Shown here one piece after another: positions 1-48,640 of a stretch of 64,000 bases of DNA. Below the pieces are notes generated by a model that was not told where the DNA came from, did not search any database, and worked only from the letters and a program-made list of their open reading frames with translations. Origin of the DNA: Auanema rhodensis. Its lineage: Eukaryota > Animalia > Nematoda. Where the stretch lies: the NCBI GenBank assembly GCA_964057225.1, contig OZ059898.1, positions 9,486,001 to 9,550,000 of the forward strand, given 5' to 3'. Both the position numbers and the translations under genes were made by a program. How positions within the stretch are numbered: the stretch's first letter is position 1; each line of letters opens with the position of its first letter.

Positions 1-39
1 GAATTTCATCAACAGTTTCATACCATCTGTAAATCTCAA

Positions 40-2034
40 ATGGAAACTGTAAAAAGCTGGCAAGCTATATTACGTATACATCCTACAATAGGAGTAAGAG
101 CTATGCTTCAGCGGAATGATATCGTTGCCCGATTTGTTGGAAGAAATGTTTTAAAAATAACAACTTGTCAGGAAATAGAACCACATTTCATTTATCGTAA
201 TCATTCTTACAATGATAAATGTTATGCAGAGACCCCTGTTTTAACACACGATAAACAATTATTCTTTGCTCCTATCGATAGCTACGATTCGAGCACTGAA
301 GGACATGAGATCAATTGTGAACACAAAGAGACAAAGATTTGGTATGAAAATGGAACATGGAGAGATTATAAAGGTGACACACATAAAGTAGATAGTATTC
401 ATTCAGAAAAACATGATCATTATGCTGAATTGAGTAAACTTCGATTCACAGGGCGGAATTTGTTTGAAAATTCGACTGAAAAATCCTTAGCCCTATCTAT
501 TGGATTAACTTATGGTTATAGTTTATCTACTTCACCTCACCATGATCTTCTCCGCGTAATTTCTCGTTTACGTGATTGGCCTCAAATTTCCTCTTTCATC
601 TTCAAAGGAAGTAAACTTATAAGAGATGCCAGGAAAATTGTTTTCTCCAATTGGGATCTGTTCATTGACTTTTGTATAGGTTCAATTGAACGAACACTCA
701 TTACCATCGGTTGTATAACTCTGATATTATGTCTAATGATAGCATTATATTTCACTATAAAATGTTATCTCTCCCCTACTTCTATGTTAAAAATAAACCA
801 TATCATGTTGAGCCCAACAGCTCCACCACTTGAGGGAGATGAGATTCATGAAACAGTTAGTGATGAATTGATGCGAAGCTATTTTCCCACCATCATAACT
901 TACATTCCTTTAGCCATACCTTTTGTATGTCACACAACAACAAAGAAAAATGGACACATGTTACCGTTTGTTTATATTGACATTGAAGGTAGAGGACTGT
1001 TAGCATTATGGGATTCTGGAGCTACGGTCTCATATATTCCGTTCTCCACATTGGCATATATTGGAAGACAATATTTTACAAAATATTCTAAATCTGCATC
1101 CACTGCAAATGGATCAGAGTTTCGCTTTGTGGGAAAATGCAAGTTAGATGTGGGTATAGCAGGTTACCAAGTGGAACACGAATTTTTAATATCTGAAGAC
1201 AATGACTGTCCAGGACAAATGTTACTTGGTACTGATTTTATGCGTACGTTGGAAGAAAGAGAGATATTTACTACATTAAAACTATGTAAAGGAAAGTTGA
1301 TTGTTGGTAATATGGAAACACCCTTAGTAAAACCTGGTTGTTTTGCATATAAAACCACAACTAAAACAGTAAATATCATAAGTTTGTCCACAGTAACAGT
1401 TCCACCACACAGTACCTCCCATATATCTTTGCAAACGGGACCAGAATTAGATTTTGATCAATATGCTCTTTTAAAATCTAGCACAGGTCCTATCTCAATT
1501 CCAGATGCCGCCATAGGACCTTTTCCTATTACTATGGTAGTATCAAACAATTCTTCAAAGCCAATTAAAATTAATAAAAATGACCACATTGGTTCAGGAC
1601 TTATAGCATCTAAAGAAATTATGAACGATTATGTTCCACCTGAAGCTGATTGGGAAGATAAGTTACCAACTTTTCCTCAGCATCTTTTGGATGATTTGAA
1701 CTTCAATTCTTGCACTCTGTCCCATAAAATGAAGAAAAATCTGATCACAATCATTAAGGAAAACCAAACGGCATTTTTCAACCATGATCATAATATTGGT
1801 CTCTTTTGCGGACCAGTTGAACATGCCATTCCTATAAGATCTGATATGGATTTTCCAAAAAGTAGATCTTACAGAGTACCATTGGGTAAGCAAGAAGAAG
1901 TAGAACGGCAAGTGAAAGAAATGTTGTCGCAAGGTATAATCGAAAATTCGACGGCTACTTTCACTAGTCCGGTTGTTCTTGTGAAAAAGAAAGATAGACT
2001 TAGCGGCTGGAGCTCAGTTCTTTTCGAATTTTGA
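40..2034 (+). CDS. Polyprotein segment: C-terminal part of a gB-like (class III) glycoprotein, TM helix, PTAP tail, aspartic protease and RT N-terminus (the frame probably continues upstream of the window)
   Basis: RIHPTIGVRAMLQRNDIVARFVGRNVLKITTC...CYAETP resembles herpes gB (xNPxxIxSxxxGRxVSARxLGDVxxVSxC...CYSRP). Hydrophobic helix TLITIGCITLILCLMIALYFTI, then PTAPP, protease LWDSGA and LLGTDF, and RT start SPVVLVKKKD. Confidence 0.75.
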   Translation: METVKSWQAILRIHPTIGVRAMLQRNDIVARFVGRNVLKITTCQEIEPHFIYRNHSYNDKCYAETPVLTHDKQLFFAPIDSYDSSTEGHEINCEHKETKIWYENGTWRDYKGDTHKVDSIHSEKHDHYAELSKLRFTGRNLFENSTEKSLALSIGLTYGYSLSTSPHHDLLRVISRLRDWPQISSFIFKGSKLIRDARKIVFSNWDLFIDFCIGSIERTLITIGCITLILCLMIALYFTIKCYLSPTSMLKINHIMLSPTAPPLEGDEIHETVSDELMRSYFPTIITYIPLAIPFVCHTTTKKNGHMLPFVYIDIEGRGLLALWDSGATVSYIPFSTLAYIGRQYFTKYSKSASTANGSEFRFVGKCKLDVGIAGYQVEHEFLISEDNDCPGQMLLGTDFMRTLEEREIFTTLKLCKGKLIVGNMETPLVKPGCFAYKTTTKTVNIISLSTVTVPPHSTSHISLQTGPELDFDQYALLKSSTGPISIPDAAIGPFPITMVVSNNSSKPIKINKNDHIGSGLIASKEIMNDYVPPEADWEDKLPTFPQHLLDDLNFNSCTLSHKMKKNLITIIKENQTAFFNHDHNIGLFCGPVEHAIPIRSDMDFPKSRSYRVPLGKQEEVERQVKEMLSQGIIENSTATFTSPVVLVKKKDRLSGWSSVLFEF

Positions 2035-4420
2035 TCTCATTTCTGGTTTCTTCCAAATACCGTTGAAACGCTCAGATAGATACCTAACTGCTTTTACCAC
2101 TCCATCAGGTACCTATCAGTATTGCCGAATGCCTATGGGATTGTGTGGAGCGCCACACACTTTTCAATCCGCAGTACGATACTTGCAATCTCTTGTTAGA
2201 TGCAAACTGTTTGTATATCTAGATGATTTGCTAATAATTTCGAACTCAGCTGAAGAACATTTAAAAGATATACAAGAAGTTCTGAAAAAGGTAACTGAAC
2301 TAGGGTTAAAAATTAAGTTATCTAAATGTTGCTTTACAGCCACTGAAGTAAAGTTTTTGGGTTTTGTAATAGGTAGAAATGGTGTTAAACCAGATCCTGC
2401 TAAGATACAGGCTGTTTCCGAATTTCCAAATCCAAGTACAGTTACGGCTGTTAGATCCTTTCTAGGTATGACTAACTATTTTCGACGGTTTATTCAAAAT
2501 TATGCCGAAATAGCTGAGCCATTGTATAAGTTAACACATAAGGATACTCCTTTTGAGTGGAAATCGGAACATGCAGACGCATTTAAAACTTTAAAAACAT
2601 TACTGTGTACTGCCCCTGTACTGAAACCTCCTAAAGCAGACCAACCTTTTGTTATAGAAAGTGATGGCAGTATGATCGCTGTGGGAGCAGTTTTATTGCA
2701 ATCAGCAGAGAAAAATTCTCCATTACACCCGATTGCGTTCGCTAGTAGAAAGTTGACTCCAGCGGAACGGAAATATCCTCCTATTGAAGTTGAAGCACTC
2801 GGTTTAGTCTTTGCTCTTCAACAATTCCGTACCTATGTATTAGGAGTGCCTACCACAGTTATCACAGATCACCGACCATTAACCAGTTTAATGTCGCGTA
2901 AAGATCTCATAGGTAGATTAGCCAAGTATCAACTAATGATACAAGATTTCAACATAAAGATTGAATATCGTCCTGGCAAATTAAACAGTGCCTGTGATGC
3001 TCTCTCCAGGTATATAGGAAACGAAGCAAATGACAGTCGTCCTACTAAACCAAAGGACAAAGTAAAACCTGTTGATGCTTTTATTGCTCATATTACAACT
3101 ATTTCTTCTATTGACCAACTAAATTGTGAAGAAATACGGAAAGTTCAAGCTGGAGTTCCCTGGATTCGCGAAGCACTTTCTCAAATTAATAATGATAACT
3201 GTCCGGCTAATATATCAGACCGGTATGAAGAACGAGAAGGCATATTACATGCAAAACAAGCGAAAAATTATTTGAAACCATCTATCATTTTGCCTCGAAA
3301 CGACAAAATAACTGATGTTGTTATCAAGTTTTTCCATGAAGATTCCAAAATTGGTGCACACCTAGGTATAAATAAAACTACTGATGCGATTCGACGACGA
3401 TTCTTTTGGACTAAAATGGTTCCACAAATAACTGAATTTATTAATCGTTGTACAAAATGTGCAAGTAGGAAATCTAACCCACACCAATCGTATATTCAAC
3501 CTATGGGAAGATTTGTTATACCCGAAAAGCCATTTGATCGTATTCATGTAGATATACTAGGTACCTTTACCTCGCACTAATGATGGACATCGATACATCT
3601 TGAGTATTCAAGATGCTTTTAGTAAATGGGGAACAACTTGCCCATTAATAACACAAACGGCTACTGAAATCACAAAAGCGTTTGTAATTAGATTTGTTTT
3701 CATATATGGACCACCAATGAGTATGATAACCGATAATGGTAGTAGCTTTTTGTCATCTGAATTTCAAGCTATGTGTAAACAATTTGGAATTAAACACACT
3801 ACTACGCTACCATATCATAAAAATGCTAATGGACAAGTTGAGAGACTTCATAGAACTTTGGAAGAAGCTCTCTCTTCATTCGTGAATGAACAACAAACTA
3901 ACTGGGATATACACCTACCCAAAGTTATGTTTGCGATCAATACGTTACCAAACTCATCAACATCTATTAGTCCATATGTTGTATTATTTGGTCGGGATGC
4001 AAGACTTCCGAAAAAAAAAAAAAAAGAATTGACCATCAATTGCCTGGAAATAATCTTCAAACTGAAGAACCAGCCAATCCTACAGAAGATTTTGTCAATA
4101 GATCGCTAATACAAAATGAAAGCACATCTAATATAGTAAAAGATAGAATTGAAACATGCACAAAGAAGAATGAACAACGGTACAATACACGAAATAGAAC
4201 ACAAAATAAAGAAATTCAGGTTAATGACTTAGTTATGATAAAAGTGAATTCTACTCGAAACAAACTAACACCTTCATTCGAAGGGCCTTATTTAGTTACA
4301 GCAGTTCAAAGATCTTTCGTCGTGGTTCAAACAGATAAAGGAAAAAGCAGAAGAGTACACAAGGACTTCGTCAAACCTTACCAACGGACAACATCTATTC
4401 CGGTTATCACAATTTCTTGA
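1870..4420 (+). pseudogene. Gypsy pol (RT-RNase H-integrase), disrupted
   Basis: YLDD, RNase H ESDGS/TDHRPL, zinc finger GAHLG...CTKC, integrase HVDI/TDNG/NGQVER, FEGPY. There is a deletion in RT near 1997, frameshift/stop near 3580, and a poly(A) insertion at 4011-4025. Confidence 0.9.
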
Positions 4421-5024
4421 AGGAATTTTTTTTTTAACAAAATCAAACTGTTGAAATTTTTATTTTTATTTTGTGCCATTTCTGATTGTAACACTTCTTT
4501 GTTGTTGATTGATTTTCTCTGAGAAGTCTGCTATTGTTTTACAAGGTTTTGTTTTATTACTCCAACTCTCATTGAGTAGATTTTTTTTTTCAACATTCTC
4601 TTGTGAATCTTGCTATTTTTTATGCTTAATCATTACTTGTATTCACCTTATGGACATTAGTCATACGGGTTAAACGAGTTTTCATTTTTTTGTACAGAAC
4701 GGGCTCGACCTATTCTCAGGGTAACACCGTACCTGTACAACTCAAGAAAATGAACGACTATATCACAGTCGAATGGTTTAGAAGCAAAGCTCCCGTTTGC
4801 AAGCATTTCACTACTCAAGTGAATGGAATAGAATCTACTCGATACTACATTTCGAATTCAACAAACTTAAAGAAACAATAGCTAAACTTTCAAATCGTAT
4901 TGTATACATTTTTTTTTTATCCACTACACCATGATTTTTTTTTTCCAACATCCAACTATCTTAAAAAGTGAATTAATTTATTTTGTTTTTGAACGAGGAC
5001 GTTCAACTTTTTAAGGTGGGGGGA

Positions 5025-5407
5025 TGTCACATCTGCAAGCACATGGTAAACATGTGCGCGCTATTCGAGCAGCGGGAGCCTGAACAAGCCCCGCCTACAA
5101 CATGGGACACACATGGCACTCTTGCTTCTGGTCTAACCCAGATAGGTTGTCTTATAGTCATGTGAGTCTCATCTCTATATCATCTATATATATATACTCT
5201 ATTTAATACTTTATTATATCTCTTTATATTCTTTCTTAATGTAATTCTTATATTGTATTTTCTTGTTATCTGATAATGAATCCTTTTCTCTTTAAGTATT
5301 TGTCTTAATAAGGAAATCGGGGCGTTCGGGTCTGCCTACCTAAGGAACAAGGTAGAAGTACATATATCTTCCGACCATGAAAAGACGGGAAGAAACAATA
5401 TGTAACG
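5025..5407 (+). repeat. Gypsy A 3' LTR (3' end uncertain, abuts a BEL fragment)
   Basis: Starts TGTCACATC right after the PPT. The same start recurs at 46042-46073 (-), and a diverged relative lies at ~44198-44516 (-). Confidence 0.75.
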
Positions 5408-6085
5408 AGCGTAAGTTGGTTCTTCTTTTTTCATGAACAGGTTCTTTTGGTGTTGCGTTATCCTTGAGTTTTTCTGGGATCTCGTTATCTGAGATTTCCA
5501 ATGAGTGCAGTAAGTTGACAGGTCTTTTTATTTCTCGACCTGTTTCCGAAATCAGCGTTGCTTCTCTGATGTTTCCTGATCTGTCGGGGTGAACTTGAGT
5601 TATTTTCCCCGTACTCCATTTGTGACGGGGAATGGGAAGCTCGTTGATTAGGACGATTTGACCGATGAATGGAATTAACTTTGTTCCCGCTTTCTTAACT
5701 GAAATGTTGTGATGGTGTGTAGAGCGGATTTCTTTCAGGTATAGATCTGTCCAGAGTTCCCAGAACGTGTTTGTGCGCTTCCTTGATGAGTGAATTGCTT
5801 GTTCTGTATCAGCTTGAGTTTGTAGCGCTGGGCTGTCAATGTAATCCTCATCCATTTCTTCTTCTGATTCGACAGAGATGTTCAAGTCGATGTCTTTATA
5901 TATGAAATCGCATGGTCGTATGATCTCATCTTTGTTGGTATCTGTACCGATGTATGTGAGTGGACGTGTGTTTATTGTAGCTTCACACTCTGCAAGGGTT
6001 ATTGTGAGCTCTTCAGTAGTTGGAGTACTGTGGAGTGTTTTGTACAGAGCATGCTACACAGACCTAATAAGTCTTTCGTAAAAAC
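5408..6085 (-). mobile_element. Fragment of the BEL/Pao integrase C-terminal region
   Basis: Near-identical inverted copy of ~36480-37157 (NISVESEEEMDE...KRRTNLR). Confidence 0.9.
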
Positions 6086-8320
6086 AGGCATTGGCTGACG
6101 ATCTCTTTCACATTTCCCATTATATTTGTCCAGTGTAATCTTCTTGATAATGCTGCATGTGTTTTTTGATCCCTTGATGTGCTCCAATTCTTGCATCTTC
6201 ATGAAAAAGTTTCACAAGTATTTAATTCAATGTCTTTTGTTTTGGAATCATAATCATTGGAGTAAGACATTGTTTGTTAGGTTTAGCATGTAAAACTCCG
6301 TCTATAACAATATATCTATCGATATTAATCTGTTTCGGTTGTTCCGTTAACATATCATTAATAGTTTCCTCAATCCATGGTGTTCCTTGTTGTTGTTGAA
6401 TTAGTTTGTCGGTATCCAGAGTTTCCACATTTGCTACATTTATGAGATAGTTAATGGTTTCTTGGGTATCGGTTAAATTTTTTGTTGGCGTTGTCTTGTG
6501 TAATTTCAGTTTAGGGCCATCGTTAGCTTCGTTGTCTATGTATCTGGATAGTGCATCACATACACTATTCATACGTCCTGGTCGGTACATAATCACAATA
6601 TCATATTCCTGGATCATCAACTGATATTTTGCTAGTCTTCCTATGTGATCTCTTCTACTCATTAGACTTGTTAGTGGTCGATGATCCGTTATTAGCTTAG
6701 TTGACGTGCCTTAAACATATGTGCGAAATTGTTGTAATAAGTAGACGAGTGCCAACGCTTCTAATTCGATGGGTGGGTATTTTCTTTCTGTAGGTGACAG
6801 TTTCCTACTTGCGAACGCAATAGGGTGTAATCCATTTCCTGTATCTTGTAGTAAGACTGCTCCAATCGCAATAGTACTAGCGTCACTTTCAATAACAAAA
6901 GGTGTTCCATTTGTTGGTGGTTTCAGAACTGGTGCTGTGCATAGAGCTTTCTTGAGAGTCTCGAATGCTTTCTCACGTTCTTCCGTCCATTCGAAATCTT
7001 GATCCTTGTGTGTGAGTTGATACAATGGTTCGGCTACTTTGGCATAGTCTCTGATGAATCGCCTAAAATAATTTGTCATTCCAAGGAATGAACAAATAGC
7101 GGTGACCGTTTTTGGAGTTGGAAATTTCTTAACCGCTGTAATTTTTGATGGATCAGGTTGTATTCCAGCACGACCAATTATAAATCCAAGAAATTTAACT
7201 TGTGTAGCTGCGAATCTGCATTTACTTAGTTTTACTTTCATTCCTAATCCTTGTAAAGCTTGTAACATTTCTTCTATATCCTCCTGATCTTGTTCAGCTG
7301 TGTTTGATATGATGAGTAGATCATCCAGGTAAACAAAAAGTCGACATTTCACTTGATTTTGCAAATAGCGAACAGCTGATTGAAATGTATGTGGAGCTCC
7401 ACAGATACCCATCGGCATTCTGCAATATTGATAAACTCCTGATGAGGTCACAAATGCAGTAAGGTGACGGTCTTCTTCACGTAAAGGAATTTGAAAAAAT
7501 CCCGATACGAGATCGATGTTTGTGAAGTATCGAGCTCCTGCAGTACTGTCGATTATTTCTGGTATATGAGAAATAGAATAAGTCTGTTTCTGTGTGACAC
7601 TATTGAGTGCACGGAAGTCCGTAAGAAAGCGAAATGAGTTGTCTTTCTTCTTAACTAGGACGGCTAGACTTGTAAAACTTGATGTTGATGTTTCTATTAC
7701 TCCTTGGTCCAGCATTTCTTTCACTTGACGTTCAAATTCGTCCTGTGCGTGTACCCAAAGAAACTCGATGTGATCGAGATTTGGGCAGATCCATATCGGT
7801 TCTCAAAGTGATTGAATGTTCTATAGGTCCTTTGAATAATCCAATGTTCCGATCTTCGTTGAGAAAAGCATTTTGAATCTTTTCAAAATAGTTTTGAGAT
7901 TTTTACATTGACCTTGAGATAGATCGGTTGATTCGGATTTTAAATTATCGAAAGGATTCTTCTCAAAAATAGGCAATTTATCTGACCAATCAGCTTCAGG
8001 TGGAATGTAGTCCGGTATGTGTGGGATTCCAATTTTTTCTGCTATTTTTTCTTTTCAATAATGGTGTTTCCTGTTAACTTAACCTCATAATTTGCAGTGT
8101 TGATGGAAAATATTGTGAGTGGTGAAGTCTTGATAGCAGTAGGTGTGAATTGAATAGGTCTATTTCCACATCGTATAAGAGCGTATTGTTTTGGTTGTAG
8201 TTCTTTTGCCAATTGTAGACGAATCATAGCTCCAGTTTTGGGTGGAATAATTGATTCTCTTCTCTATAATTGACACGGTGTCTGAACTAATGCGAAAGCT
8301 CTTTTGGTTAGCGGGGGTTA
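6086..8320 (-). pseudogene. Gypsy family B pol fragment (linker, RT, RNase H, integrase Zn finger), frameshifted
   Basis: ORFs 6711-7724 (YLDD, ESDAS) and 6222-6662 are clearly homologous to, but distinct from, family A pol. Confidence 0.9.
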
Positions 8321-11502: not shown

Positions 11503-12104
11503 TTACGTTGTCAATCGCTCTACTTATAGGACACGTATGGAACATGCCTAATACCGAAAAAAAGTAGCTGACCTCAGCTACATCGAGAAAGTGAAATTCC
11601 ATGCAAATGTGAAAGTTGTATGAAATGTTTAAAAAATAAAAGAATATTGATAATATAGAATAATTTTTTTTGAAAAATAAAAGAAAAAACAATGTGAATA
11701 CAAAATAATACATCATATATCATACTGGGAATCTTTCAATAGTTCTTTTAGTCTTCTTCATAATACTGGTGTATCTCTGGTAATGGTGATGATCCTAGGT
11801 CGTGGAGAAGATCCATAGTCTTGTTGCATAAATCCGTTTTTTTTCCATTTCTTCTTTGGTGGTTGCTGGTGATGCCAGAAATATTTGTAGAGCATTTATA
11901 ATGTTTTTTTTGCCTCTGTGGATGGCAGTTCGCTGCAATGTTGCAGGCTCCATTCTTGATAGGCCGAATGGGTCTCGGCAATAATTCAGTTTGGTGTCTG
12001 CTGTTCTGGTGAATCGCAACTAGGTGAATAACCTAATTGGTCCCTTAGTTCAGCAATGACATCTCGGATGACTGCTGCTATGTTGGCCCATGGTCCTATG
12101 CAGT

Positions 12105-12313
12105 TGTGCGAACGCACTCCATCTTTCCCATACTCTTTTTTGGACAACGATGCACTTTTATTCCCACTATTCTATTCACCTATGACTCATACGTGCCGCA
12201 CACACACATGCAAGTTTATCCGATTACTCCCCAGATGTTCCTTCCTTATTGTCTCTTAAACACATCTGTCCATCTTAACCTTTTATGTTTAATCTTGTTC
12301 TCTTATTGCCTAT
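12105..12313 (+). repeat. BEL 5' LTR, 3'-truncated
   Basis: Near-identical to 40078-40286, then joins directly to Polinton minor capsid sequence. Confidence 0.9.
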
Positions 12314-12646
12314 TATACGTGCTTCTTCCTCAGCTCCAAGAGGCTTTGTATTGTTGGCGATAAATGATTCTCTTCCAGCATTGATTCCGCGTATTATTTC
12401 ATCACCATTTGCATAGTTGCCTTTAGGCAAGTGCAGAATAAATTTTCTATTGGAAAAACGTAGTGTATAAGATAAATCTTTTTGAACATTTAATATAGAA
12501 CAAGGAAAAATGATGTCTGTCAGCCCAATGCAATATCTATTATTGCGTAGCCTTAGTGTTTCAGGTAATCTGGTAAGAAACACTGATGATGTATTACTTT
12601 TTTCAGAGTCAACTGATGATGGAAGAGTAATGTAAAAATCATCCAT
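12314..12646 (-). pseudogene. Polinton minor capsid (penton), 5' fragment
   Basis: Matches the first ~110 aa of 18755-19612 and is truncated at the LTR junction. Confidence 0.9.
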
Positions 12647-12725
12647 GACAAACCACCACTTGATACGTGTACATTATTGCAAATGAAATCATTTGCATTT
12701 TAGGTACATTTACGAGTGGTTGATT

Positions 12726-13373
12726 ATGGTTTTCAGCTTCAAACTACCCAGTCAGACAACTGTAATAGGTGCTACCCAATGCGGTAAAACAACCCTCATA
12801 AAGCACATATGTGAAAATACTGAAAAGTTTTTCAACGTCCCCATTGATAGAATATTCTGGTTCAGTCAATGTGGGTCATCGTCAGGTGTACCAATAAATG
12901 ATGAGCGTTTAATAATTATTCAAGGGCCGCCTGATCATGATTTGATAAAAGAACAAAAGGGAGTAAATACTATACTAGTGCTGGATGATTTGATGAACTT
13001 TTTTTCATCGAATAAAGCAGCAAAGGAATTACAAAACAACATTTTTACAGTATGGGCTCATCACTGGAATTTGGCAGTGTTTAATCTTGTGCAAGCGGCA
13101 TTTCAACTGGACAGGACCAGTCGAATCAATAGTACATATATAATACTGATGAAAAGTCATTCATATATATTACAAATACGTAATTGTCTGCAGCAATTAT
13201 TTGGGCCACATTTCAAAAATGCTCTAGAGGCGTATGATGATGCAATGTCTACTCCCTATAGTCATTTACTGATTGACAATCATCCTTTAACAAGTGAGAA
13301 GCAGCGTATACTATCTGATATAACAGCGGAGAACCCTATTGTTTATGTTGCCAGAAATGTGTTTAGTGTTTAA
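12726..13373 (+). CDS. Polinton A32/FtsK-like packaging ATPase (outer copy)
   Basis: Walker A GATQCGKT, Walker B ILVLDDL, HHWN..LVQ, RINSTY. Confidence 0.9.
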   Translation: MVFSFKLPSQTTVIGATQCGKTTLIKHICENTEKFFNVPIDRIFWFSQCGSSSGVPINDERLIIIQGPPDHDLIKEQKGVNTILVLDDLMNFFSSNKAAKELQNNIFTVWAHHWNLAVFNLVQAAFQLDRTSRINSTYIILMKSHSYILQIRNCLQQLFGPHFKNALEAYDDAMSTPYSHLLIDNHPLTSEKQRILSDITAENPIVYVARNVFSV

Positions 13374-13395
13374 AGTGCTTGTTCAATGAGTGGTC

Positions 13396-14470
13396 AGTAG
13401 AGAGCCGTGCAAAATTTACTAACCACGCCCCCAAACAGTTGCTAAAAACATACTTTTGGGGGCGTCAGCTGCTAAAAACATACTTTTGGGGAGCGTCAGC
13501 TGTCAAAAACATATTTTTGAGCGTCAGCTGTTAAAATCATATTTTGGCATCATGGTTCATGGATTTTCCTTTTTTAAATTTAAAAATCATGATTTAAAGC
13601 ATGATTTTTTTTTTTTTTTTTTCAAATCAAATTTTAAATTTGTTTATTCAAATGTATGTATATAGTTTTAATTATTTTTAAATATATTAAGTAAAAATAA
13701 AAATTATAAATTTTAAATATTTAAATTATATTTAAATTTTATATATATATAAATTATATTTAAACTTTAAATAATTAAATTATATTTAAATTTTATATAT
13801 ATAAATTATATTTAAACTTTAAATATTTAAATTATATTTAAATTTTATATATATAAATTATATTTAAACTTTAAATTTTATATATATAAATTATATTTAA
13901 ACTTTAAATTTTATATATATAAATTATATTTAAATTTTAAATATATAAATTTGTTTTTAAATTTTATTTCTTTCTTTATTTCTTTATTAAATTTATTAAT
14001 AATGTTTGTTTACTTGATTTGTTTATTTTTTATTGTATTGTGTTTGTACTATTTTATTTTAAAGAACAGTAAAATTTTTGCATGTATATCGTTTTGTTCA
14101 CCGTACTTGTTACGGGTAGTTCAATGGAACACATATCGAAGGTTAATTCGATAAGAACGATATGAAATACAAAATTTAATGGAACACATATCGAAGGTTA
14201 ATTCGATAAGAACGATATAAAATACCAAAATTTAATGGAACACATATCGAAAGTTAATTCGATAAGAACGACATTAAATTATTAATTTTTGAAATTACAA
14301 ATTGTTATTAATTATATTTATTCTAACAAGTAAAAGTTTCAAATTAAAAGAAAAGACTAGTTTTAAACTTTATTTTACTAATATAACAATACAATAACTA
14401 AATAGAGCACACATTGAAGGTAAATACAATAAGATTAACAAACAGTTGCGCTGACCTCAATGAAACGCAT
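13396..14470 (+). repeat. Polinton left TIR with 30-bp, AT-rich and 56-bp internal tandem repeats
   Basis: Inverted homology to 28176-29038 and ~33200-34200. Confidence 0.9.
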
Positions 14471-15093
14471 ATCGATGGTTAATAAACAGTAATAACTGCA
14501 CTGTGGGGGTTTAAATATAGTATAATCATTTTAACATTTCAAAAGTTTTAGTTTCGTAATATAATCATTTTTAAATATTCAAGAATGAAATATTTTTACA
14601 TATAAAACGTTGGCAGTCACATGTTTTGTGCTACAATATGGGTGTAAAACTATACTATGAATAATATATGAGCTATTAAGCAAAGTTTAAAAAGCCTAAA
14701 TGTTTTACAGAGATGGCTGTTGTTTATGGCACAAACGGTAAACAATAATGTTTAAAGAGATGTAAAAACTAATTAATATGCAGATTGTTTACAGGTTCAG
14801 AGTGCGCCAACTGTTGGCAACTGTCGATGAGATGAGTATATCTGCATAAATATGCTGTAAAATCTAATTAATAAAAGAATTTCATCAGCAAACTTGATTG
14901 TAACACAATGGGTTGTACTTTACAAAAATCTTTGTATAAAAGGTTGGCAATTTTGCTACATTTACATTTCAGCTCTGCCGACTATCCGAGGATCCGACGT
15001 TTCACCATCTCCTGCCACTCTTTGCCAATCGCCATAGACTGCTCCTCTCTGCAAGTTTGCCTTATATTTTAGAAAGTTGGATCTTTAGCGGAA

Positions 15094-15679
15094 ATGAAGC
15101 GTGCTGTACTTGCTGATGTGACAAATGTTGTGCGCAAATCGCCTGAACCTGAAGTACCACGACCACCCACACCAGCACCAAATTTCACAAGTTTTGGTAT
15201 GAACCTTAACTTGTCTTTTTTAAATCTTTAATTTAGATTCACCAATAAAGCAGATTGAGATTCTGAGAGAGAGCACTCCACCAAGGAGTGTATTAATGAG
15301 ACCGATTTGTCTCTGCAAAACTTGTAGGGAATCATTGCAGGTTATAGACGAGTATCACTGTTTCAGCCTCTGTATAAAGTGTAGAGGAAGGAATGATGCG
15401 TTGGGTCTTTTGAAGGAGTTTCGTCACTATAAGCCCGAAAACTTTTCTATTAATGTAAGCTTGCATATTTATTTATTTTCAATTTTATAATTTTTTTAGA
15501 TGCGCTTTTATAACACCATGACGTGCAAGCAATTGTTGAACAATATGGGCTATATTGTTATATATGCAGATGAGGCTACTGTAAAGACTTTTGGTTATAA
15601 GCAGAATGTATTCTACTTTAAACTAATTCCTGAAGCACTCAACCTGAACATGTTTATCCGCTTTGATCCTTCATTTTGA
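15094..15679 (+). CDS. Spliced Polinton accessory protein, ~166 aa (exons 15094-15196, 15237-15454, 15500-15679); D-box-like N-terminus, CxCxxC...CxxCxxC
   Basis: 40- and 45-bp GT-AG introns give one continuous frame: MKRAVLADVTN...DSPIK...STPPR...CLCKTC...CFSLCIKC...FDPSF*. Confidence 0.65.
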
Positions 15680-15972
15680 CTACAACAAGCACAAATAGTA
15701 CAATTGGCGTTTTATTCTTGTTTTGTTATGTGGCATTTTTATATTCTCAGCCGTAACATTTTTTTTTCCAGCTCTTGCGAATATCCATCAATGGCTCATC
15801 AATTGAGGACGAATGATCAACCAACTGGTAAGAATTTGAAAATTTGAATAGTCTACATTTTTTTTTCCAGGTTGAATTGTTGTTTGTATTTTGCTGGTTT
15901 TTTATTGTTACATTATGCGATATATCAAATAAATCATTTATTATAATTACAATTGTTTATAACATTGAAAAA

Positions 15973-17037
15973 TTATACATTTAAATTTTCTGCATCTATC
16001 CATTCATTAAAGTTGTCGGGATATCCACTCCATTTTACAAATACTTGACGTTTACCGCTTCGAGTACGCTCTTTTAAAACTTTTTCTATATAGTACTTGT
16101 TGCTTTTATTAGTAGCCAAGACAAGTTCAGGTTCGTAGAATATTCCCTTTATACGTTCACCATTATAATCTACAAGTTTATACACGGTTGGGTTTCCGGT
16201 TACAACCTCATCAATTGTGAACAGCTCCATTGTATATCCAGACTCGTAGCTTTTTTCAAAAGTACGCCTATTTTTGCTTATGCGAACAGTATCACCAATT
16301 TTAAAGCGGCTTTTAACAGCTGGTGCATATTCTTCAATGAATATATTTGCTTTAACATCAATGGGCCGCATTTTTATAGAGCGGTTATAAGATTTGTTTA
16401 TTCCTTCAACCAAATCATCTAGGATATCAATCCAACGATGATTATTCTTGTAATAGAGATATTTCATCATGCGTGTTTTTAAAGTTCTATTTGCTCGCTC
16501 CACCATTGCAGCCTTTTGTGGTGAACTTGTAGATCCGTGCAGTATGGCAAACTTTTTGAATAGTTTTTCACAATGACTATTATAAAACTCTGTGCCATTA
16601 TCAGTAATCAACTGAATTGGTATAAAATTCTTGAATAAATTTTCAAATGCACTAGCAACCTCTATACCACCTTTAGTTTTCAAAGGCCTAACATATAACA
16701 TGCGTGAAACATCAATCATGGTCAACATGTAAGCATAGCCGTCGTTTAATTTTTTATATTTTTGCATATCAACCAAATCTGCTTGCACTGTTAGAAATCG
16801 ACCACATCCTCTAGTCTTTCTAGTCTGCATACGCATTCTGGTTGGTTTATGCCGTGTAAAAGTTTCAGAATCTTGCAAAAAATCATCAACTTGTACCTTT
16901 GAAATGCCATGTTTTCGTGCTTGCGATAATAAATTCTTGGCTGATGTATATGAAGCTGGATGTTTTATATCGTAATAAATGCTCGCCAAAATATCATTTC
17001 CATAATCTAATGTAGAACCTTTTACGACCTTGGCCAT
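15973..17037 (-). CDS. Polinton retroviral-like integrase with C-terminal chromodomain
   Basis: QADLVD / TDNGTEF / VERANRT DDE triad, and YYIEKVL...VKWSGY...EWI chromodomain. ATG inferred at MAKVV. Confidence 0.92.
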   Translation of the reverse strand: MAKVVKGSTLDYGNDILASIYYDIKHPASYTSAKNLLSQARKHGISKVQVDDFLQDSETFTRHKPTRMRMQTRKTRGCGRFLTVQADLVDMQKYKKLNDGYAYMLTMIDVSRMLYVRPLKTKGGIEVASAFENLFKNFIPIQLITDNGTEFYNSHCEKLFKKFAILHGSTSSPQKAAMVERANRTLKTRMMKYLYYKNNHRWIDILDDLVEGINKSYNRSIKMRPIDVKANIFIEEYAPAVKSRFKIGDTVRISKNRRTFEKSYESGYTMELFTIDEVVTGNPTVYKLVDYNGERIKGIFYEPELVLATNKSNKYYIEKVLKERTRSGKRQVFVKWSGYPDNFNEWIDAENLNV

Positions 17038-17710
17038 TCTGTGTTTCTCCCGCCTGAGGTGTGTAATATGATTCGGCGGCAGTATCAAAAGTCTTTGACC
17101 TTTTACTTTTGAGTGTACGAACCGGTGATGGTGAATATCGAATAACAGCTTTACGATGACGAGGCGTTCTAGGTAATATAGTAGAGTCCAAGTCTGTAAC
17201 AGCCGGTTCAGCTCTAGTTACAACGTCAACTGAATCATTGTCAGCCGACTCTCTTCTAGTTTGTTTCTTGTTAGAACTAGATACGCCTTTACTGGCTAAA
17301 AACTTTGACAAGACTGAAAATCCATTGGGCTCCGTTTTTGTTTTATCCAGTACAAAATCTAAAATTTTTGTAATATTCGTGTTTGGTACAGCCTCATTAT
17401 TAATCACAAGTTGGTTATTCTTGTTTGTGCGCACCTCTGGAAATTTCTCCCACAAATTGTTATACTTTCTTGGCAACTTGTATTCTGGCAATAGAGGTGG
17501 ATCAACATTTTCCACTTGTACTGATATGGGCGCATCTATACTTTCTCTATAGTTTTTGAGACGAGCAATCAAGTCTTCGTATAGTTCAGCCTTTTTATAG
17601 TCGGGTATAGCTCTATTTTCTCGTAAAAGCTTGAGCTCTGCATCAAACTTGTCTATATTAATTGTTTCCTCGTCGACAGGAATTAGTCGATATTTATGGT
17701 TGAGCTTCAT
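16994..17710 (-). CDS. Polinton uncharacterised protein (238 aa) with basic S/T-P-rich C-terminus
   Basis: Intact in both copies, overlaps neighbouring ORFs in a tightly packed cluster, ends QNGQGRKRF. Confidence 0.8.
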   Translation of the reverse strand: MKLNHKYRLIPVDEETINIDKFDAELKLLRENRAIPDYKKAELYEDLIARLKNYRESIDAPISVQVENVDPPLLPEYKLPRKYNNLWEKFPEVRTNKNNQLVINNEAVPNTNITKILDFVLDKTKTEPNGFSVLSKFLASKGVSSSNKKQTRRESADNDSVDVVTRAEPAVTDLDSTILPRTPRHRKAVIRYSPSPVRTLKSKRSKTFDTAAESYYTPQAGETQNGQGRKRFYIRLWK

Positions 17711-18015
17711 GATTTAAAACCAAAATAGGCAATACCACATGTAACTATTGTTTTCAATTGTTTGTGTGAAAGCGTTGCCAATAATGATTTAGCCTTTTCC
17801 GGTGTGCGTATCAAAGCTATTTGACGTAATAATGAAGATATGGGCAAGAGGGTTTTATATTCCTTGTTAGTTAAAAGAAAATTATTATTTTTCACAATAT
17901 TAAATACAATTTCAACAATAATTTCAATTTGTGCAAAAGAAAATGAGGAAACAGAACAAGGAGTTTTGGCGCAAGAAGACAAAAAGTTGAAATTTGACAA
18001 AATACGACCACTCAT
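17707..18015 (-). CDS. Polinton small uncharacterised protein (102 aa)
   Basis: Intact in both copies. ATGA stop/start overlap with the downstream ORF. EIVFNI motif. Confidence 0.75.
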   Translation of the reverse strand: MSGRILSNFNFLSSCAKTPCSVSSFSFAQIEIIVEIVFNIVKNNNFLLTNKEYKTLLPISSLLRQIALIRTPEKAKSLLATLSHKQLKTIVTCGIAYFGFKS

Positions 18016-18027
18016 TGAACAAGCACT

Positions 18028-18675: not shown

Positions 18676-18754
18676 AATCAACCACTCGTAAATGTACCTA
18701 AAGTGCAAATGATTTCATTTGCAATAGTGTACACGTATCAAGTGGTGGTTTGTC

Positions 18755-19612: not shown

Positions 19613-19617
19613 ACGTT

Positions 19618-20082: not shown

Positions 20083-20335
20083 TAGAGGAAAATGAAAAAC
20101 GACCACACGCAATCAACCCACTTTTATATAATGAGCAATAATATGACTAGTGTTGTACAAAAGCCCAATCCCAATGCTATACCTTTAATAAATGGCACTG
20201 AAATACATTTCAACATTCTCCTGTATAAAGGCGCTGGTTTAGATTGCTCCAACGTGTATTTGACACATAATTCACAGTGACAAGGAATATTCATAACTGA
20301 CCACGTAATGTAGCAGGTTATTAATGACAAATTTC

Positions 20336-20791: not shown

Positions 20792-20842
20792 TTTAGTAGA
20801 ATGATCTAGTGTAACTTTTGTATTGCGCGCGTGCGGTTCGAT

Positions 20843-22630: not shown

Positions 22631-22774
22631 TGTATGTAATAAATTCTTTAAAAGATTTAAGAATAAAATTTATTAATACCACTATTTTTAAAAATAAATA
22701 CATGTACAATGATAAAATTTTATAAATACAAATATATACAAGATAAAAATTTATAAATTCAAATATATTAAAAC

Positions 22775-46041: not shown

Positions 46042-48530
46042 CACATGTTTACCATGTGCTTGCAGATGTGACATCCCCCCACATAAAAAGTTGAACGTCC
46101 TTGTTCAAAAACAAAATAAATTGATTCACTTTTTAAGATAGTTGGATGTTGGAAAAAAAATCATGGTGTAGTGGATAAAAAAAAATGTATACAATACGTT
46201 TTGAAAGTTTTAGCTATTGTCTCTTCAAATTTGTTGAATTCGAAATGTAGTATCGAGTAGATTCTATTCCATTCACTTGAGTAGTGAAATGCTTGCCAAC
46301 GAGAGCTTTGCTTCTAAACCATTCGACTGTGATATAGTCGTTCATTTTCTTGAGTTGTACAGGTACGGTGTTACCTTGAGAAAAAGTCGAGCCCGTTCTG
46401 TACAACAAAATGAAAACTCGTTTGACCCGTATGACTAATGTCCATAAAGTGAATACAAGTAATGATTAAACATAACAAATAGCCAGATTCACAAGAGAAT
46501 ATTGAAAAACTGCTGTAACTAAATAAGGCCCTTCGAATGAAGGTGTTAGTTTGTTTCGAGTAGAATTCACTTTCATCATAACTAAGTCATTAACCTGAAT
46601 TTCTTTATTTTGTGTTCTATTTCGTGTATTGTACCGTTGTTCATTCTTCTTTGTGCATGTTTCAATTCTATCTTTTACTATATTAGATGTGCTTTCATTT
46701 TGTATTAGTGATCTATTGACAAAATCTTCTGTACGATTGGCTGGTTCTTCAAATTGAAGATTATTTCCAGGCAATTGGTGGTCAATAGGAAGTCTTGCAT
46801 CCCGACCAAATGATACAACAAATGGACTAATAGATGTTGATGAGTTTGGTAACGTATTGATCGCAAACATATCTTTGGGTAGGTGTAAATCCCAGTTAGT
46901 TTATTGTTCATTCACGAATGAAGAGAGCGCTTCTTCTAAAGTTCTATGAAGTCTCTCAACTTGTATATATATACAGGGTGGGTGAGAAGTATGTGTCGCT
47001 CTTTAAATCTCAATATTTCAAAAACAAAACAATATTTTAGCATCAAAAGTTTTTATTATAAAGAGTTATTATTAACTTAGAAATTTTACAAATTGTGTTC
47101 AAAATGGGCTCCTTTTGCTTTAGTTACCGCTGCTATCCTCTTTTTGAAATTGTTCACTGTTGACCACAGGTAATCCTCATCTATTTCGTCCCATGCTTTG
47201 ATCAAAGCTAGCTTCAGCGAATCCAAACTAGTGAAATGTTGCTTCTCTATTTTAGATTGAAGTAGTCCCCATACTGAATAGTCCATTGGGTTGAGGTCAG
47301 GTGAACAGGAAGGCCATACATCTTTGCCCCAGAACCCTGGAAAATGGGTTTTACAGTAGTCCATCGTCGTTTTGGCACTATGAGCTGGTGCCCAATCCTG
47401 TTGAAGAATCATTTCTTGATTTTCGAAGTTGCTCCTCATCCATGGTCCTAAAACGTCCTCCAATATGGTTTTTTGATACACGGCCGCATTGATTTTGACG
47501 TTCCTTTCAATGAAAACAAGCGGTGTCTTCAATTTTGCTGTGATTCCTCCCCAAACCATCAAAGATTTGAAGAAGAGAGATCTCTCAGCAATGATTCTGT
47601 TCTGATTTTTTCTTCCATCTATTTTCATCAGTTGTCGATAGTTCTGTCTGTCCTCTACCTTCAATGTCAATATGAACAAACGGAAACATGTGTCCATTAT
47701 TCTTTGTTGTTGTGTGACATACAAAAGGTATGGCTAAACGAATGTAAGTTATGATGGTGGGAAAATAGCTCCGCATCAATTCATCACTAAATCTTTCATG
47801 AATCTCTTTTTCCTCAAGTGGCGGAGCAGTTGGGCTCAACATGATATGGTTTATTTTTAACATAGAAGTAGGGGAGAGATAACATTTTATAGTGAAATAT
47901 AATGCTATCATTAGACATAATATCAGAGTTATACAACCGATGGTAATGAGTGTTTGTTTAATTGAACCTACACAAAAGTCAATGAACAAATCCAAATTTC
48001 GGAAAACAATTTTCCTGGCATCTCTTGTAAGTTCACTTCCTTTGAAGATGAAAAAGGAAATTTGAGGCCAATTGTGTGAACGAGAAATTACGCGGAGAAG
48101 ATCATGATGAGGTGAAGTAGATAAACTATAACCATAAGTTAATCCAATAGATAAGGCTTAGGATTTTTCAGTCGAATTTTCAAACAAATTTCGCCCTGTG
48201 AATCGAAGTTTACTCAATTCAGCATAATGATCATGTTTATCTGAATGTATACTATCTACTTTATGTGAGTCACCTTTATAATCTCTCCATGTTCCACTTT
48301 AATACCAAATCTCTGTCTCTTTGTGTTCACAATTGAAATGTGGTTCTATTTCCTGACAAGTTGTTATTTTTAAAACAATTCTTCCAACAAATTGGGCAAC
48401 GATATCATCCCGTTGAAGCATAGCTCTTACTCCTATTGTAAGCTGTATACGTACATAGCCTGCCAGCTTTTTACTGTTTCCATTTGAGATTTACAGATGG
48501 TATGAAATTTTTGATGAAATTCGTCAATTA
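46042..48530 (-). mobile_element. Second, deleted copy of Gypsy family A (env-like region, integrase end, 3' UTR, 32 bp of LTR)
   Basis: Inverted homology to 1-998 (47650-48522) and to ~3833-5056 with deletions (46042-46964). Confidence 0.92.
46974..47649 (-). mobile_element. maT-type (DD37D) Tc1/mariner transposon, 5'-truncated
   Basis: LMVWGG, QQDWAPAH-(37 aa spacing)-SPDLNPMD. Terminus CAGGGTG follows a (TA)n run. Confidence 0.88.
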
Positions 48531-48640
48531 TGGAGAGACGCGCTTTCTCAAAACCATAATTCAACTTATTATCTATTATCGTTTTAGTTTTTTGTGGAGA
48601 ATATTGTCATATACTTCTGCTACACACAACTCTCAACCTC

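What the first reader, a model, noticed from the sequence alone, without database searches (positions are those of the whole stretch)
1..1250. Gypsy element with a gB-like fusogen fused in-frame upstream of the protease (env-TM-PR-RT order)
Seen: the region where gag normally precedes protease instead encodes a Cys-containing ectodomain, a TM helix, a ~80-aa tail and then DSGA protease, with no stop. Known: env-bearing Gypsy elements and retroviruses usually carry env 3' of pol. gB-like glycoproteins are known from the Ascaris BEL element Tas and from nematode Mavericks. Inference: the segment HPTIGVRAML..RNDIVARFVG.NVLKITTC..CY is gB-like, so this is an enveloped retrovirus-like lineage in which Pol is made membrane-tethered on the fusogen's cytoplasmic tail and released by the protease. 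The second copy (47650-48522) shows the same layout, so it is not a chance junction. I cannot confirm whether this arrangement is already described.
Basis: partly seen in the sequence, partly recalled or inferred. Interest (0 to 1): 0.9.

Follow-up and report, generated by a model that had tools for sequence, protein, structure and literature searches.

The report
Nematode gag-env-pol gypsy retrovirus copy
This is a slightly broken copy of a nematode-type Gypsy endogenous retrovirus whose herpes-gB-like membrane-fusion protein is encoded in the same reading frame directly ahead of the protease and reverse transcriptase, a real family-wide layout that would likely make the enzymes membrane-tethered, but one already reported for nematode elements.

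Summary
Window 1-2034 is one open frame: glycoprotein ectodomain tail (aa 1-231), one transmembrane helix (232-254), an 83-aa stretch, then DSGA protease and reverse transcriptase.

The ectodomain is a class III fusogen:
- Pfam PF24664 gives a sub-threshold hit, but 151 relatives were found and many of those scanned pass the cut-off.
- An alignment-based AlphaFold model matches chuvirus, nyamivirus and rhabdo-like glycoproteins and herpesvirus gB domains III-IV.

The fusion is the family norm:
- 31 of 52 scanned relatives carry the fusogen upstream of protease or RT in one protein.
- 9 of those 52 also show gag upstream of env.
- 45 of 68 show a transmembrane helix followed 69-174 aa later by D[ST]G[AS].
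- Named relatives are all nematode (Auanema, Caenorhabditis, Halicephalobus, Acrobeloides).

Gag is therefore not replaced. It likely lies upstream of the window.

The GAG-ENV-POL order with gB-type Env in nematode Ty3/gypsy elements is already published (Chary & Hayashi 2026, citing Sacco et al. 2022). Single Gag-Pol-Env polyproteins are known from nematode Atlas viruses.

Verdict: a new member of a known kind. Membrane tethering of Pol and its release by the protease are inferred, not shown.

The parts
1..390 (+). Class III fusogen ectodomain, aa 1-130: C-terminal part of the central helix (domain III-like) plus a beta-rich crown (domain IV-like). Cys56 is invariant; Cys74 and Cys106 are nearly invariant. 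The gene is cut by the window's 5' end.
   Evidence: Pfam PF24664 matches aa 7-123 to profile positions 335-444 of 653, E 7.3e-6. Alignment A3 gives the conserved cysteines. AF2 pLDDT is 87-98 here. The model aligns to HSV-1 gB residues ~520-660 at Z 5-6. BFVD Foldseek E is 1.5e-6.
391..693 (+). Rest of the ectodomain, aa 131-231: presumed domain V and membrane-proximal region.
   Evidence: The frame is open. 31-67 aligned rows cover it. pLDDT is low, 47-67, over aa 131-220 and rises to 76 over 221-230. The assignment rests on position only.
694..762 (+). Single transmembrane helix, aa 232-254.
   Evidence: It is the only Kyte-Doolittle 19-residue peak, at 2.63. pLDDT is 92-96 over aa 231-250. 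Most of the 68 long relatives have a strong helix at the same distance.
763..975 (+). Predicted cytoplasmic tail or linker, aa 255-325. It has no zinc knuckle and no stop.
   Evidence: Translation. Copy 2 keeps this stretch. In 45 of 68 relatives the gap from helix to D[ST]G[AS] is 69-174 aa.
976..1245 (+). Retropepsin-type aspartic protease, aa 326-415, with DSGA at nt 1012-1023.
   Evidence: Pfam gag-asp_proteas E 2.5e-7 and Asp_protease_2 E 2.6e-6. DSGA position.
1246..2034 (+). Protease-RT linker and start of RT. First frame break of this copy lies near 1985-2034.
   Evidence: ORF list. tblastn to the diverged pol at 8248-7641. Public contigs differ in length from the window at ~1995.
1985..3580 (+). 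RT, RNase H and integrase zinc finger. Second frame break lies near 3561-3580.
   Evidence: Pfam RVT_1 1.3e-29, RT_RNaseH_2 1.3e-32, Integrase_H2C2 1.8e-14. It is 30-52% identical to Pol of 27 env-bearing relatives.
3561..4420 (+). Integrase core and C-terminal region in two frames, with a third frame break near 3971-4109. The stop is at 4418-4420.
   Evidence: Pfam rve 4.6e-14. ORFs. Sequence.
4421..5057 (+). 3' untranslated region and presumed 3' LTR. The element ends at about 5057.
   Evidence: Copy 1 and copy 2 stay alike up to about 5057 / 46042 and then diverge. Contig word depth here is 3-6 times that of the internal part. LTR boundaries were not determined.
47650..48606 (-). Copy 2, 5' fragment: ectodomain tail, helix, cytoplasmic tail and first protease residues. 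It is decayed, cut 5' by the satellite and 3' at residue 332.
46042..46964 (-). Copy 2, 3' fragment: integrase C-terminus and 3' end, with an internal 280-nt gap relative to copy 1.

Best explanation
Window 1-5057 is the 3' two-thirds of a Ty3/gypsy endogenous retrovirus of the nematode gag-env-pol type, in which a class III (chuvirus/gB-like) fusion glycoprotein is encoded in the same frame directly upstream of protease-RT-RNaseH-integrase; the element is likely translated as one Gag-Env-Pol polyprotein, so that Pol would be made on the cytoplasmic tail of the membrane-anchored fusogen and would be released by the element's own protease.

Shown: the open frame, the single helix, the protease motif, the fold class, and the same collinear layout in many relatives.

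Inferred:
- Type I topology, with the ectodomain in the ER lumen and the tail plus Pol in the cytosol.
- An internal signal sequence after Gag.
- Cleavage of the tail-PR junction by the protease.
- Equimolar Gag:Env:Pol.
- Gag lying upstream of the window.

This copy itself is dead, with three frame breaks. The family is high-copy in public DNA runs.
For: Anatomy: the frame is open over 677 codons, with one helix and DSGA 83 aa after it. The domain order is PR-RT-RH-IN.

Fusogen identity:
- The window's protein hits PF24664 at E 7.3e-6 and PF00606 at E 0.006.
- The ESM Atlas nearest clusters are PF24664, then gp64, rhabdovirus G and gB.
- An exhaustive phmmer search found 151 relatives at E<=1e-3 and 41 at E<=1e-10.
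- The closest relatives score 36-58 bits on PF24664, above the cut-off of 27.
- AF2 with a 94-row alignment gives pLDDT 87-98 for aa 1-130.
- Foldseek against BFVD gives 30 matches at E<=1e-3. The top 30 are chuvirus, rhabdo-like, nyami-like or other negative-strand RNA virus glycoproteins, herpesvirus gB or U39, or entomopoxvirus proteins, some of them unnamed in the table.
- The top 5 PDB Foldseek rows are all gB.
- VIA aligns aa 1-120 to gB domains III-IV at Z 5-6, rmsd 3.3-4.7 over 92-120 residues.

Family-wide fusion:
- 21 of 22 long hits and 10 of 30 further hits have env upstream of PR, RT or IN in one protein.
- 9 of these 52 also show gag or a zinc knuckle upstream of env.
- Of 68 hits long enough to test, most have a strong helix starting 212-259 aa after the window-start equivalent (window: 232). 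45 have D[ST]G[AS] 69-174 aa after it.
- All 25 long polyproteins examined have exactly one strong hydrophobic segment between env core and PR. 13 of 25 have another 300-650 aa upstream, a candidate internal signal.
- The window's Pol is 30-52% identical to Pol of 27 of these same proteins.
- All named relatives are nematode.

Copies: two separate insertions in the window share the junction. In eight DNA runs the contig depths of the env part and the protease part are similar: 2306 vs 2493, 633 vs 593, 328 vs 446. At the three frame breaks the public contigs differ in length from the window, so the breaks look private to this copy.
Against: - The window's own PF24664 score (24.7 bits) is below the curated cut-off of 27, and PF00606 is far below its cut-off.
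- No PDB Foldseek hit reached E<=1e-3.
- VIA Z of 5-6 is in the range the tool calls middling. In the unbiased VIA search the gB domain IV row was rank 12, tied with coiled-coil matches to the long helix.
- The fusion loops, signal peptide, gag, 5' LTR and primer-binding site are outside the window, so none could be checked for this element.
- No short-read contig bridges env to PR by itself, because a 36-nt node at 912-947 is shared with an internally deleted form. Direct bridging comes only from the window's two copies.
- dN/dS between the two copies is 0.59 over 289 codons, which is only weak evidence of constraint.
- Nothing here shows translation, topology or cleavage.
Confidence: 0.8

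Rival explanations
1. Env and Pol share a frame in the DNA but are not made as one protein. Splicing or another subgenomic route would give separate Gag-Env and Pol (or Gag-Pol) products, so Pol would never be membrane-tethered.
For: There is no direct evidence. Retroviruses express env from spliced RNA, and nematodes splice efficiently (established knowledge). Equimolar Pol is unusual among retroelements. No transcript data could be obtained: no listed run is on record as RNA.
Against: An unbroken shared frame across the tail-PR junction is kept in 31 of 52 scanned relatives that are only 15-48% identical to the window's protein in alignment A3. The helix-to-active-site spacing is conserved in 45 of 68. 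That would not be needed if the two were expressed apart. [quoted passage not shown]
Confidence: 0.15
2. The junction is an accident: an env from one element next to a 5'-truncated Gypsy pol, through nested insertion, recombination or misassembly.
For: The window is a dense transposon graveyard with nested and truncated elements. Short-read contigs break at 912-947.
Against: Two separate insertions in the window share the junction. The same collinear layout occurs in dozens of proteins from other nematodes. Env and PR contig depths match in eight runs.
Confidence: 0.02
3. The N-terminal segment is a membrane protein of another kind, such as a divergent gag or matrix protein or a host-derived protein, and not a fusogen.
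For: The window's own Pfam scores are below the curated cut-offs. Structural Z-scores are modest. The fusion-loop domain is not in the window.
Against: Homologues exceed the PF24664 cut-off in the same region. The BFVD matches at E<=1e-3 are, where named, viral glycoproteins or gB-like proteins. Gag domains (Retrotrans_gag, Ty3_capsid, zf-CCHC) are found separately, upstream of env, in 9 relatives.
Confidence: 0.03

Closest known systems
GAG-ENV-POL Ty3/gypsy 'errantiviruses' with HSV/gB-type ENV in Nematoda, Bryozoa and Platyhelminthes (Chary & Hayashi, eLife 2026, PMC13524379; sections 5, 6, 14 and passages read, supplementary file 1 searched). It cites the nematode elements of Sacco et al., J Gen Virol 2022 (not held).
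   Same: Ty3/gypsy pol and a class III gB-type Env placed between gag and pol. The hosts are nematodes: 36 Nematoda elements are listed, from genera including Caenorhabditis, Haemonchus, Heligmosomoides, Meloidogyne, Globodera and Heterodera. Named relatives of the window's protein come from Caenorhabditis nigoni and C. remanei, species in that list.
   Different: The text I read speaks of three ORFs and does not say that env and pol share one uninterrupted frame. I recall that Sacco et al. describe a continuous gag-env-pro-pol ORF and Nyamiviridae/Chuviridae-like glycoproteins, but I could not read that paper. The window's env is only 42-50% identical to its nearest relatives found (Auanema), so this family is probably not one of the catalogued elements. 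I could not compare sequences with the catalogue.
Atlas viruses and other nematode belpaoviruses (Merchant et al., Sci Adv 2022, PMC9094657; passages read)
   Same: A nematode endogenous retroelement that encodes Gag, Pol and a captured RNA-virus-type fusogen as one polyprotein without stops. An Atlas-like element lies in this same window at 34181-39778.
   Different: Atlas is BEL/Pao, not Gypsy. Its Env is a class II phlebovirus Gn-Gc. The order is Gag-Pol-Env, so Pol precedes the glycoprotein instead of hanging on its cytoplasmic tail.
BEL/Pao elements with chuvirus-like or gB-like Env (Ascaris Tas; mosquito BEL elements, as cited in PMC13524379)
   Same: The same class III glycoprotein family. 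Three of my hits (P0107, P0145, P0146) are BEL/Pao proteins that carry PF24664.
   Different: There env follows pol. Here it precedes the protease, and pol is Gypsy-type with no Peptidase_A17 domain.
MFUS-1, the gB-like fusogen of nematode Mavericks (Widen et al., bioRxiv 10.1101/2022.07.12.499685; passages read)
   Same: A class III gB-like fusogen captured by a nematode mobile element. Maverick genes lie in this window at about 12-32 kb.
   Different: MFUS-1 is a separate gene of a DNA element. tblastn with the window's protein at E<=1e-3 found only the two copies of this element and the diverged pol at 8248-7641, and nothing in the Maverick region.

Membership tests
Nematode gag-env-pol Ty3/gypsy endogenous retroviruses (gB-type 'errantiviruses') | Ty3/gypsy pol with the order PR-RT-RNaseH-IN | tested here: met
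   Pfam finds the domains in this order along 976-4109. There is no Peptidase_A17. Pol is 30-52% identical to Pol of 27 env-bearing relatives. No RT phylogeny was made.
Nematode gag-env-pol Ty3/gypsy endogenous retroviruses (gB-type 'errantiviruses') | Class III (gB-type) Env encoded upstream of pol | tested here: met
   Ectodomain, helix and tail lie directly upstream of PR in one frame.
Nematode gag-env-pol Ty3/gypsy endogenous retroviruses (gB-type 'errantiviruses') | Gag upstream of env | not testable with these tools
   The window starts inside env and no whole genome is held. Public contigs continue at least 3276 nt upstream at similar depth. Gag is upstream of env in 9 of 52 scanned relatives.
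Nematode gag-env-pol Ty3/gypsy endogenous retroviruses (gB-type 'errantiviruses') | Flanking LTRs and a tRNA primer-binding site | not testable with these tools
   The 5' end is outside the window. Only a shared 3' terminus at about 5057 / 46042 and higher contig depth over 4250-5100 were seen.
Nematode gag-env-pol Ty3/gypsy endogenous retroviruses (gB-type 'errantiviruses') | Nematode host | tested here: inconclusive
All seven named relatives are nematode. The window also holds an Atlas-like belpaovirus and Maverick genes.
Class III viral fusion glycoproteins (gB, rhabdovirus G, gp64, chuvirus G) | Central helix (domain III) followed by the crown domain IV fold | tested here: met
   AF2 pLDDT is 87-98 for aa 1-130. 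BFVD gives 30 hits at E<=1e-3, all glycoproteins or gB-like where named. The model aligns to gB domains III-IV at Z 5-6, rmsd 3.3-4.7 over 92-120 residues. The Z-scores are modest.
Class III viral fusion glycoproteins (gB, rhabdovirus G, gp64, chuvirus G) | Domain I with bipartite fusion loops | not testable with these tools
   By the PF24664 mapping that part of the protein lies upstream of window position 1: the window starts at profile position ~335 of 653.
Class III viral fusion glycoproteins (gB, rhabdovirus G, gp64, chuvirus G) | Type I membrane protein with a single C-terminal helix | tested here: met
   There is one hydrophobic segment, aa 232-254. The topology itself was not tested.
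Pfam PF24664 Monjiviricetes_fusion | Score at or above the curated cut-off (27 bits) | tested here: inconclusive
   The window's fragment scores 24.7 bits (E 7.3e-6), and only the second half of the profile (from position ~335 of 653) can fall within the window. Its phmmer relatives score 36-72 bits in the same region.
Herpesvirus glycoprotein B (Pfam PF00606) | Score at or above the curated cut-off (43 bits) | tested here: not met
   The score is 16.5 bits, E 0.0061. None of the 52 scanned relatives reaches 43 bits either. The protein is gB-like in fold but is not a member of the herpesvirus gB family.
BEL/Pao (Tas-like) env-bearing elements | Peptidase_A17 / BEL-Pao pol with env downstream of pol | tested here: not met
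   Pol here is Gypsy-type and env is upstream of it. BEL/Pao relatives of the env do exist (P0107, P0145, P0146).

The most novel reading that the evidence does not exclude
In this clade the cytoplasmic tail of a trimeric class III fusogen, not Gag, is the device that carries Pol into particles. The conserved 70-130-aa tail would couple protease activation to envelope assembly at the membrane. The family would still be replicating in, and possibly moving between, nematode hosts: near-identical high-depth contigs occur in runs under five organism labels, and an abundant internally deleted derivative rides on it.
Probability: 0.15. Interest if true: 0.6.

Novelty: new member of a known kind. Interest (0 to 1): 0.3.

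Why it matters
The window adds one more high-copy family, probably uncatalogued, to the nematode gag-env-pol Gypsy retroviruses.

That makes a concrete and still untested question easy to pose. Is Pol of these elements really made as a membrane-anchored Env-Pol precursor, and how does a dimeric protease get activated on a trimeric glycoprotein tail?

The layout itself is not a discovery. A specialist who knows the 2022 and 2026 papers would not be surprised.

Tried and rejected
Searches that found no env relative:
- No whole genome is held for the window, so the 5' part could not be read.
- Word-index protein searches with aa 1-320 found nothing, near and longer. With the 677-aa protein, longer, the only hit (P0003) matched pol alone.
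- Viral contigs, metagenome contigs and PDB by sequence gave no usable relative of env.

Structure:
- Single-sequence AF2 gave pLDDT 38.6 and was unusable.
- The VIA wide search was swamped by coiled-coil matches to the long helix at 180-260. gB domain IV was only rank 12 at Z 5.6.

Public runs:
- No RNA holder is listed. Two runs only guessed to be RNA (X12, X13) had no cover of window 1-850 but covered most of 1080-5100 at depth 3-12. I draw nothing from that.
- In all eight runs a contig has other sequence upstream of 912 (loose ends of 59-85 nt). Past ~956 the contigs also run on into sequence that lies near 4160-4220 in the window. In run X13 one contig holds the other upstream sequence, 912-939 and 4160-4435 together.
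- I read this as an internally deleted, non-autonomous derivative. I first took it for an env-less gag-PR subfamily and dropped that idea. Its 30-letter loose end is not in the window, so its origin is unexplained.

Other:
- The diverged Gypsy pol at 8263-6222 (-) is 5'-truncated before its protease, so it says nothing about layout.
- dN/dS between the two copies (0.59) is too weak to argue for selection.
- Sacco et al. 2022 could not be read by DOI or PubMed id. Searches for 'gag-env-pro-pol', 'env-pro-pol', 'Nematoda endogenous retrovirus' and related terms found only the eLife paper. A search on Nyamiviridae, endogenous retrovirus, nematode and glycoprotein found one unrelated paper.
- I could not compare the window with the catalogued elements' sequences.
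Full report
THE OBSERVATION

Frame 1 of window 1-2034 is open for 677 codons and runs off the 5' end. At about 35% G+C I estimate a stop about every 15 random codons, so chance is excluded (my arithmetic).

The protein reads as follows:
- a cysteine- and sequon-bearing segment (Cys 10, 56, 74, 106; N67, N117, N157);
- one strong hydrophobic helix at aa 232-254, with a Kyte-Doolittle 19-residue mean of 2.63 and no second peak;
- then 83 residues without a zinc knuckle;
- then DSGA at aa 338-341.

Pfam places an aspartyl protease at aa 326-415 (E 2.5e-7). RVT_1, RT_RNaseH_2, Integrase_H2C2 and rve follow in the next ORFs. That is the Ty3/gypsy order.

This copy has three frame breaks, near 1985-2034, 3561-3580 and 3971-4109. 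It ends its coding part at 4420 and the element at about 5057.

THE SECOND COPY

Copy 2 lies on the minus strand. Positions 48606-47650 correspond to copy 1 from 85 nt before the window's start up to nt 997, at 93-95% DNA identity. It carries a 123-nt deletion, a frameshift and two stops.

It stops at residue 332, six residues before DSGA. An ORF with a DDE transposase match (47086-47733) sits there. The element then resumes at 46964-46042 with the integrase C-terminus and 3' end. Upstream it is cut by a 232-bp satellite.

The two copies share the 3' terminus and diverge immediately after it, so they are separate insertions. Copy 2 therefore confirms that ectodomain, helix, tail and the first protease residues are one stretch in the family. 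It does not itself show the active site.

WHAT THE N-TERMINAL PART IS

Evidence from the window's own protein was suggestive but not decisive:
- Pfam gives PF24664 Monjiviricetes_fusion at E 7.3e-6 (24.7 bits, below the cut-off of 27; aa 7-123 on profile positions 335-444 of 653). It gives herpesvirus Glycoprotein_B at E 0.0061.
- The ESM Atlas feature search puts PF24664 clusters first (score 0.90, 176 of 256 shared features), followed by gp64, rhabdovirus G and gB clusters.
- Word-based protein searches, viral and metagenome contig scans, and PDB by sequence found nothing.

The exhaustive phmmer search of 1.84 billion representatives found 151 relatives at E<=1e-3, of which 41 at E<=1e-10. 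The three closest are 38-50% identical and score 36-58 bits on PF24664 in the homologous region, above the cut-off.

A 94-row alignment has Cys56 invariant and R33, A43, C74, P79, F89 and C106 nearly invariant.

With that alignment AlphaFold2 gives pLDDT 87-98 for aa 1-130: two helices, then a beta-rich domain. It gives 92-96 over aa 231-250, within the membrane helix. Confidence is low elsewhere. A single-sequence run had failed.

The structure searches gave:
- Foldseek against predicted viral structures: 30 matches at E<=1e-3. The best is a Keturi virus putative glycoprotein at 1.5e-6. The top rows are chuvirus, rhabdo-like, nyami-like and other negative-strand RNA virus glycoproteins, herpesvirus gB and entomopoxvirus proteins.
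- Foldseek against the PDB: the top five rows are all herpesvirus gB, the best being PRV gB domain IV at E 1.9e-3. None reached 1e-3.
- VIA-align on Foldseek's candidates: aa 1-120 align with HSV-1 gB residues ~520-660, the end of the central helix and domain IV. Z is 5-6 and rmsd 3.3-4.7 over 92-120 residues. Prefusion gB alignments run on to the membrane helix.
- The unbiased VIA search was dominated by coiled-coil matches to the long helix. gB domain IV was only a tied rank 12.

Taken together the segment is the C-terminal half of a class III fusogen. It is gB-like in fold. By sequence it belongs with the mononegaviral-type glycoproteins and not with herpesvirus gB.

IS THE FUSION A FAMILY FEATURE?

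Yes. I scanned 52 of the 150 listed hits with Pfam.

Among the 22 hits of at least 1600 residues within the first 94, 21 have the env match upstream of aspartyl protease, RVT_1, RNase H or integrase in the same protein. One has env only. Six also show Retrotrans_gag or a zinc knuckle upstream of env.

The 30 further hits break down as follows:

| Layout | Number |
|---|---|
| env then PR or RT | 10 |
| gag then env, protein ends before pol | 3 |
| BEL/Pao proteins with env after pol | 3 |
| env alone | 12 |
| no family found | 1 |
| helicase plus env | 1 |

A script then looked at the 68 proteins (65 distinct hits plus three cluster members) that extend at least 230 residues past the env core. 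Most have a strong hydrophobic segment starting 212-259 residues after the equivalent of window residue 1 (window: 232). 45 of 68 have D[ST]G[AS] 69-174 residues after that helix (window: 83).

All 25 long polyproteins examined have exactly one strong hydrophobic segment between env core and protease. 13 of 25 have another 300-650 residues upstream, where an internal signal sequence would be expected.

The window's Pol is 30-52% identical to the Pol of 27 of these same proteins.

Named relatives come from Auanema sp., Caenorhabditis nigoni, C. remanei, Halicephalobus sp. and Acrobeloides nanus. The others are unnamed.

THE FAMILY IN PUBLIC RUNS

Fifteen runs from four studies hold the stretch, ten of them half of its words or more. 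None is on record as RNA.

In the eight DNA runs I laid, most contigs are 99% or more identical to the window. Word depths are high and similar for the env part and the protease part: 328 vs 446, 2306 vs 2493, 633 vs 593.

Contigs run at least 3276 nt upstream of window position 1 at the same depth. The element therefore continues well beyond the window, with room for the missing ectodomain half and gag.

At each of the window's three frame breaks the contigs differ in length from the window, so the breaks look private to this copy.

Contigs break at a 36-nt node (912-947). This node is shared with an abundant form that has other sequence upstream and joins to about 4160-4220 downstream. I read that form as an internally deleted derivative. 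As a result no short-read contig bridges env to protease alone.

MECHANISM

Shown: one frame, one helix, a protease after a conserved spacer, a class III fold, and gag upstream in relatives.

Inferred from the known type I topology of class III fusogens and from how other viral polyproteins are made:
- The genomic RNA is translated into a single Gag-Env-Pol polyprotein.
- An internal signal sends the ectodomain into the ER lumen.
- The helix anchors it, and the tail with PR-RT-RH-IN stays in the cytosol.
- The protease then frees Pol from the tail.

I put about 0.6 on this full mechanism and about 0.9 on the identification of the element. The main rival is separate expression through splicing. 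The conserved unbroken frame argues against it.

WHAT IS KNOWN

Chary & Hayashi (eLife 2026, PMC13524379) state that errantiviruses of Nematoda, Bryozoa and Platyhelminthes carry only HSV/gB-type ENV, arranged GAG-ENV-POL. They list 36 nematode elements. They credit Sacco et al. 2022 for the flipped order in nematodes.

That paper is not held. I recall, unverified, that it describes a continuous gag-env-pro-pol ORF with Nyamiviridae/Chuviridae-like glycoproteins.

Single Gag-Pol-Env polyproteins are described for nematode Atlas viruses (PMC9094657). gB-like fusogens are also described in nematode Mavericks.

It is not independent evidence.

The text I could read does not state the shared frame or the conserved helix-to-protease spacing. 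That detail may be a modest addition, or it may already be in Sacco et al.

VERDICT

The element is a new member of a known kind. Interest 0.3.

Noticed in passing
window 34181-39778 (+): A BEL/Pao element. Its pol ORF carries Peptidase_A17, RVT_1, rve and DUF5641. An env ORF follows with Phlebovirus_G2 (E 4.9e-84), and its best solved match is Atlas virus Gc 7a4a (E 1.6e-39). Pol and env are in the same frame, separated only by stops around 37601-37681, as in the single Gag-Pol-Env polyprotein of Atlas viruses. A 96.6% identical fragment lies at 5402-6085 (-).
   Followed up: partly
window ~12000-32000: Maverick/Polinton genes. These include an ATPase-like ORF in inverted duplicate (12687-13373 +, 18028-18714 -), rve plus chromodomain integrases (15973-17217 -, 30478-31725 +), an adenain-like protease (20336-20890 -), a 444-aa ORF with no Pfam match (21296-22630, possibly the capsid) and protein-primed PolB (23219-25929 -). 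I saw no fusogen-sized ORF and no similarity to the Gypsy env.
   Followed up: partly
window 48643-63993: A 232-bp satellite with 66 copies at 96% matches. It abuts and truncates the 5' end of copy 2.
   Followed up: partly
window 912-956 and ~4160-4247, seen in public contigs: All eight runs laid hold an abundant form that shares only 912-947 with the element's 5' part. It has other sequence upstream and joins to about 4160-4220. It is probably an internally deleted non-autonomous derivative, with depth comparable to the full form (2036 and 1790 against 2306 and 2493 in one run). The origin of its upstream sequence is unexplained.
   Followed up: partly
window 41599-44030 and 47086-47733: Several ORFs with DDE_3 or Tc3-type HTH transposase matches (Tc1/mariner-like by my reading). 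One sits inside copy 2 of the Gypsy element, exactly where its protease-to-integrase part is missing.
   Followed up: no
window 6222-8263 (-): A second Gypsy pol, 67% identical in DNA and 5'-truncated before its protease, next to a BEL/Pao fragment. It belongs to a related but distinct family.
   Followed up: partly
proteins P0107, P0145, P0146 (relatives, not in the window): The same class III glycoprotein family also occurs at the C-terminal end of BEL/Pao polyproteins, in the order pol then env. The fusogen has therefore been combined with two retroelement superfamilies in opposite orders.
   Followed up: partly
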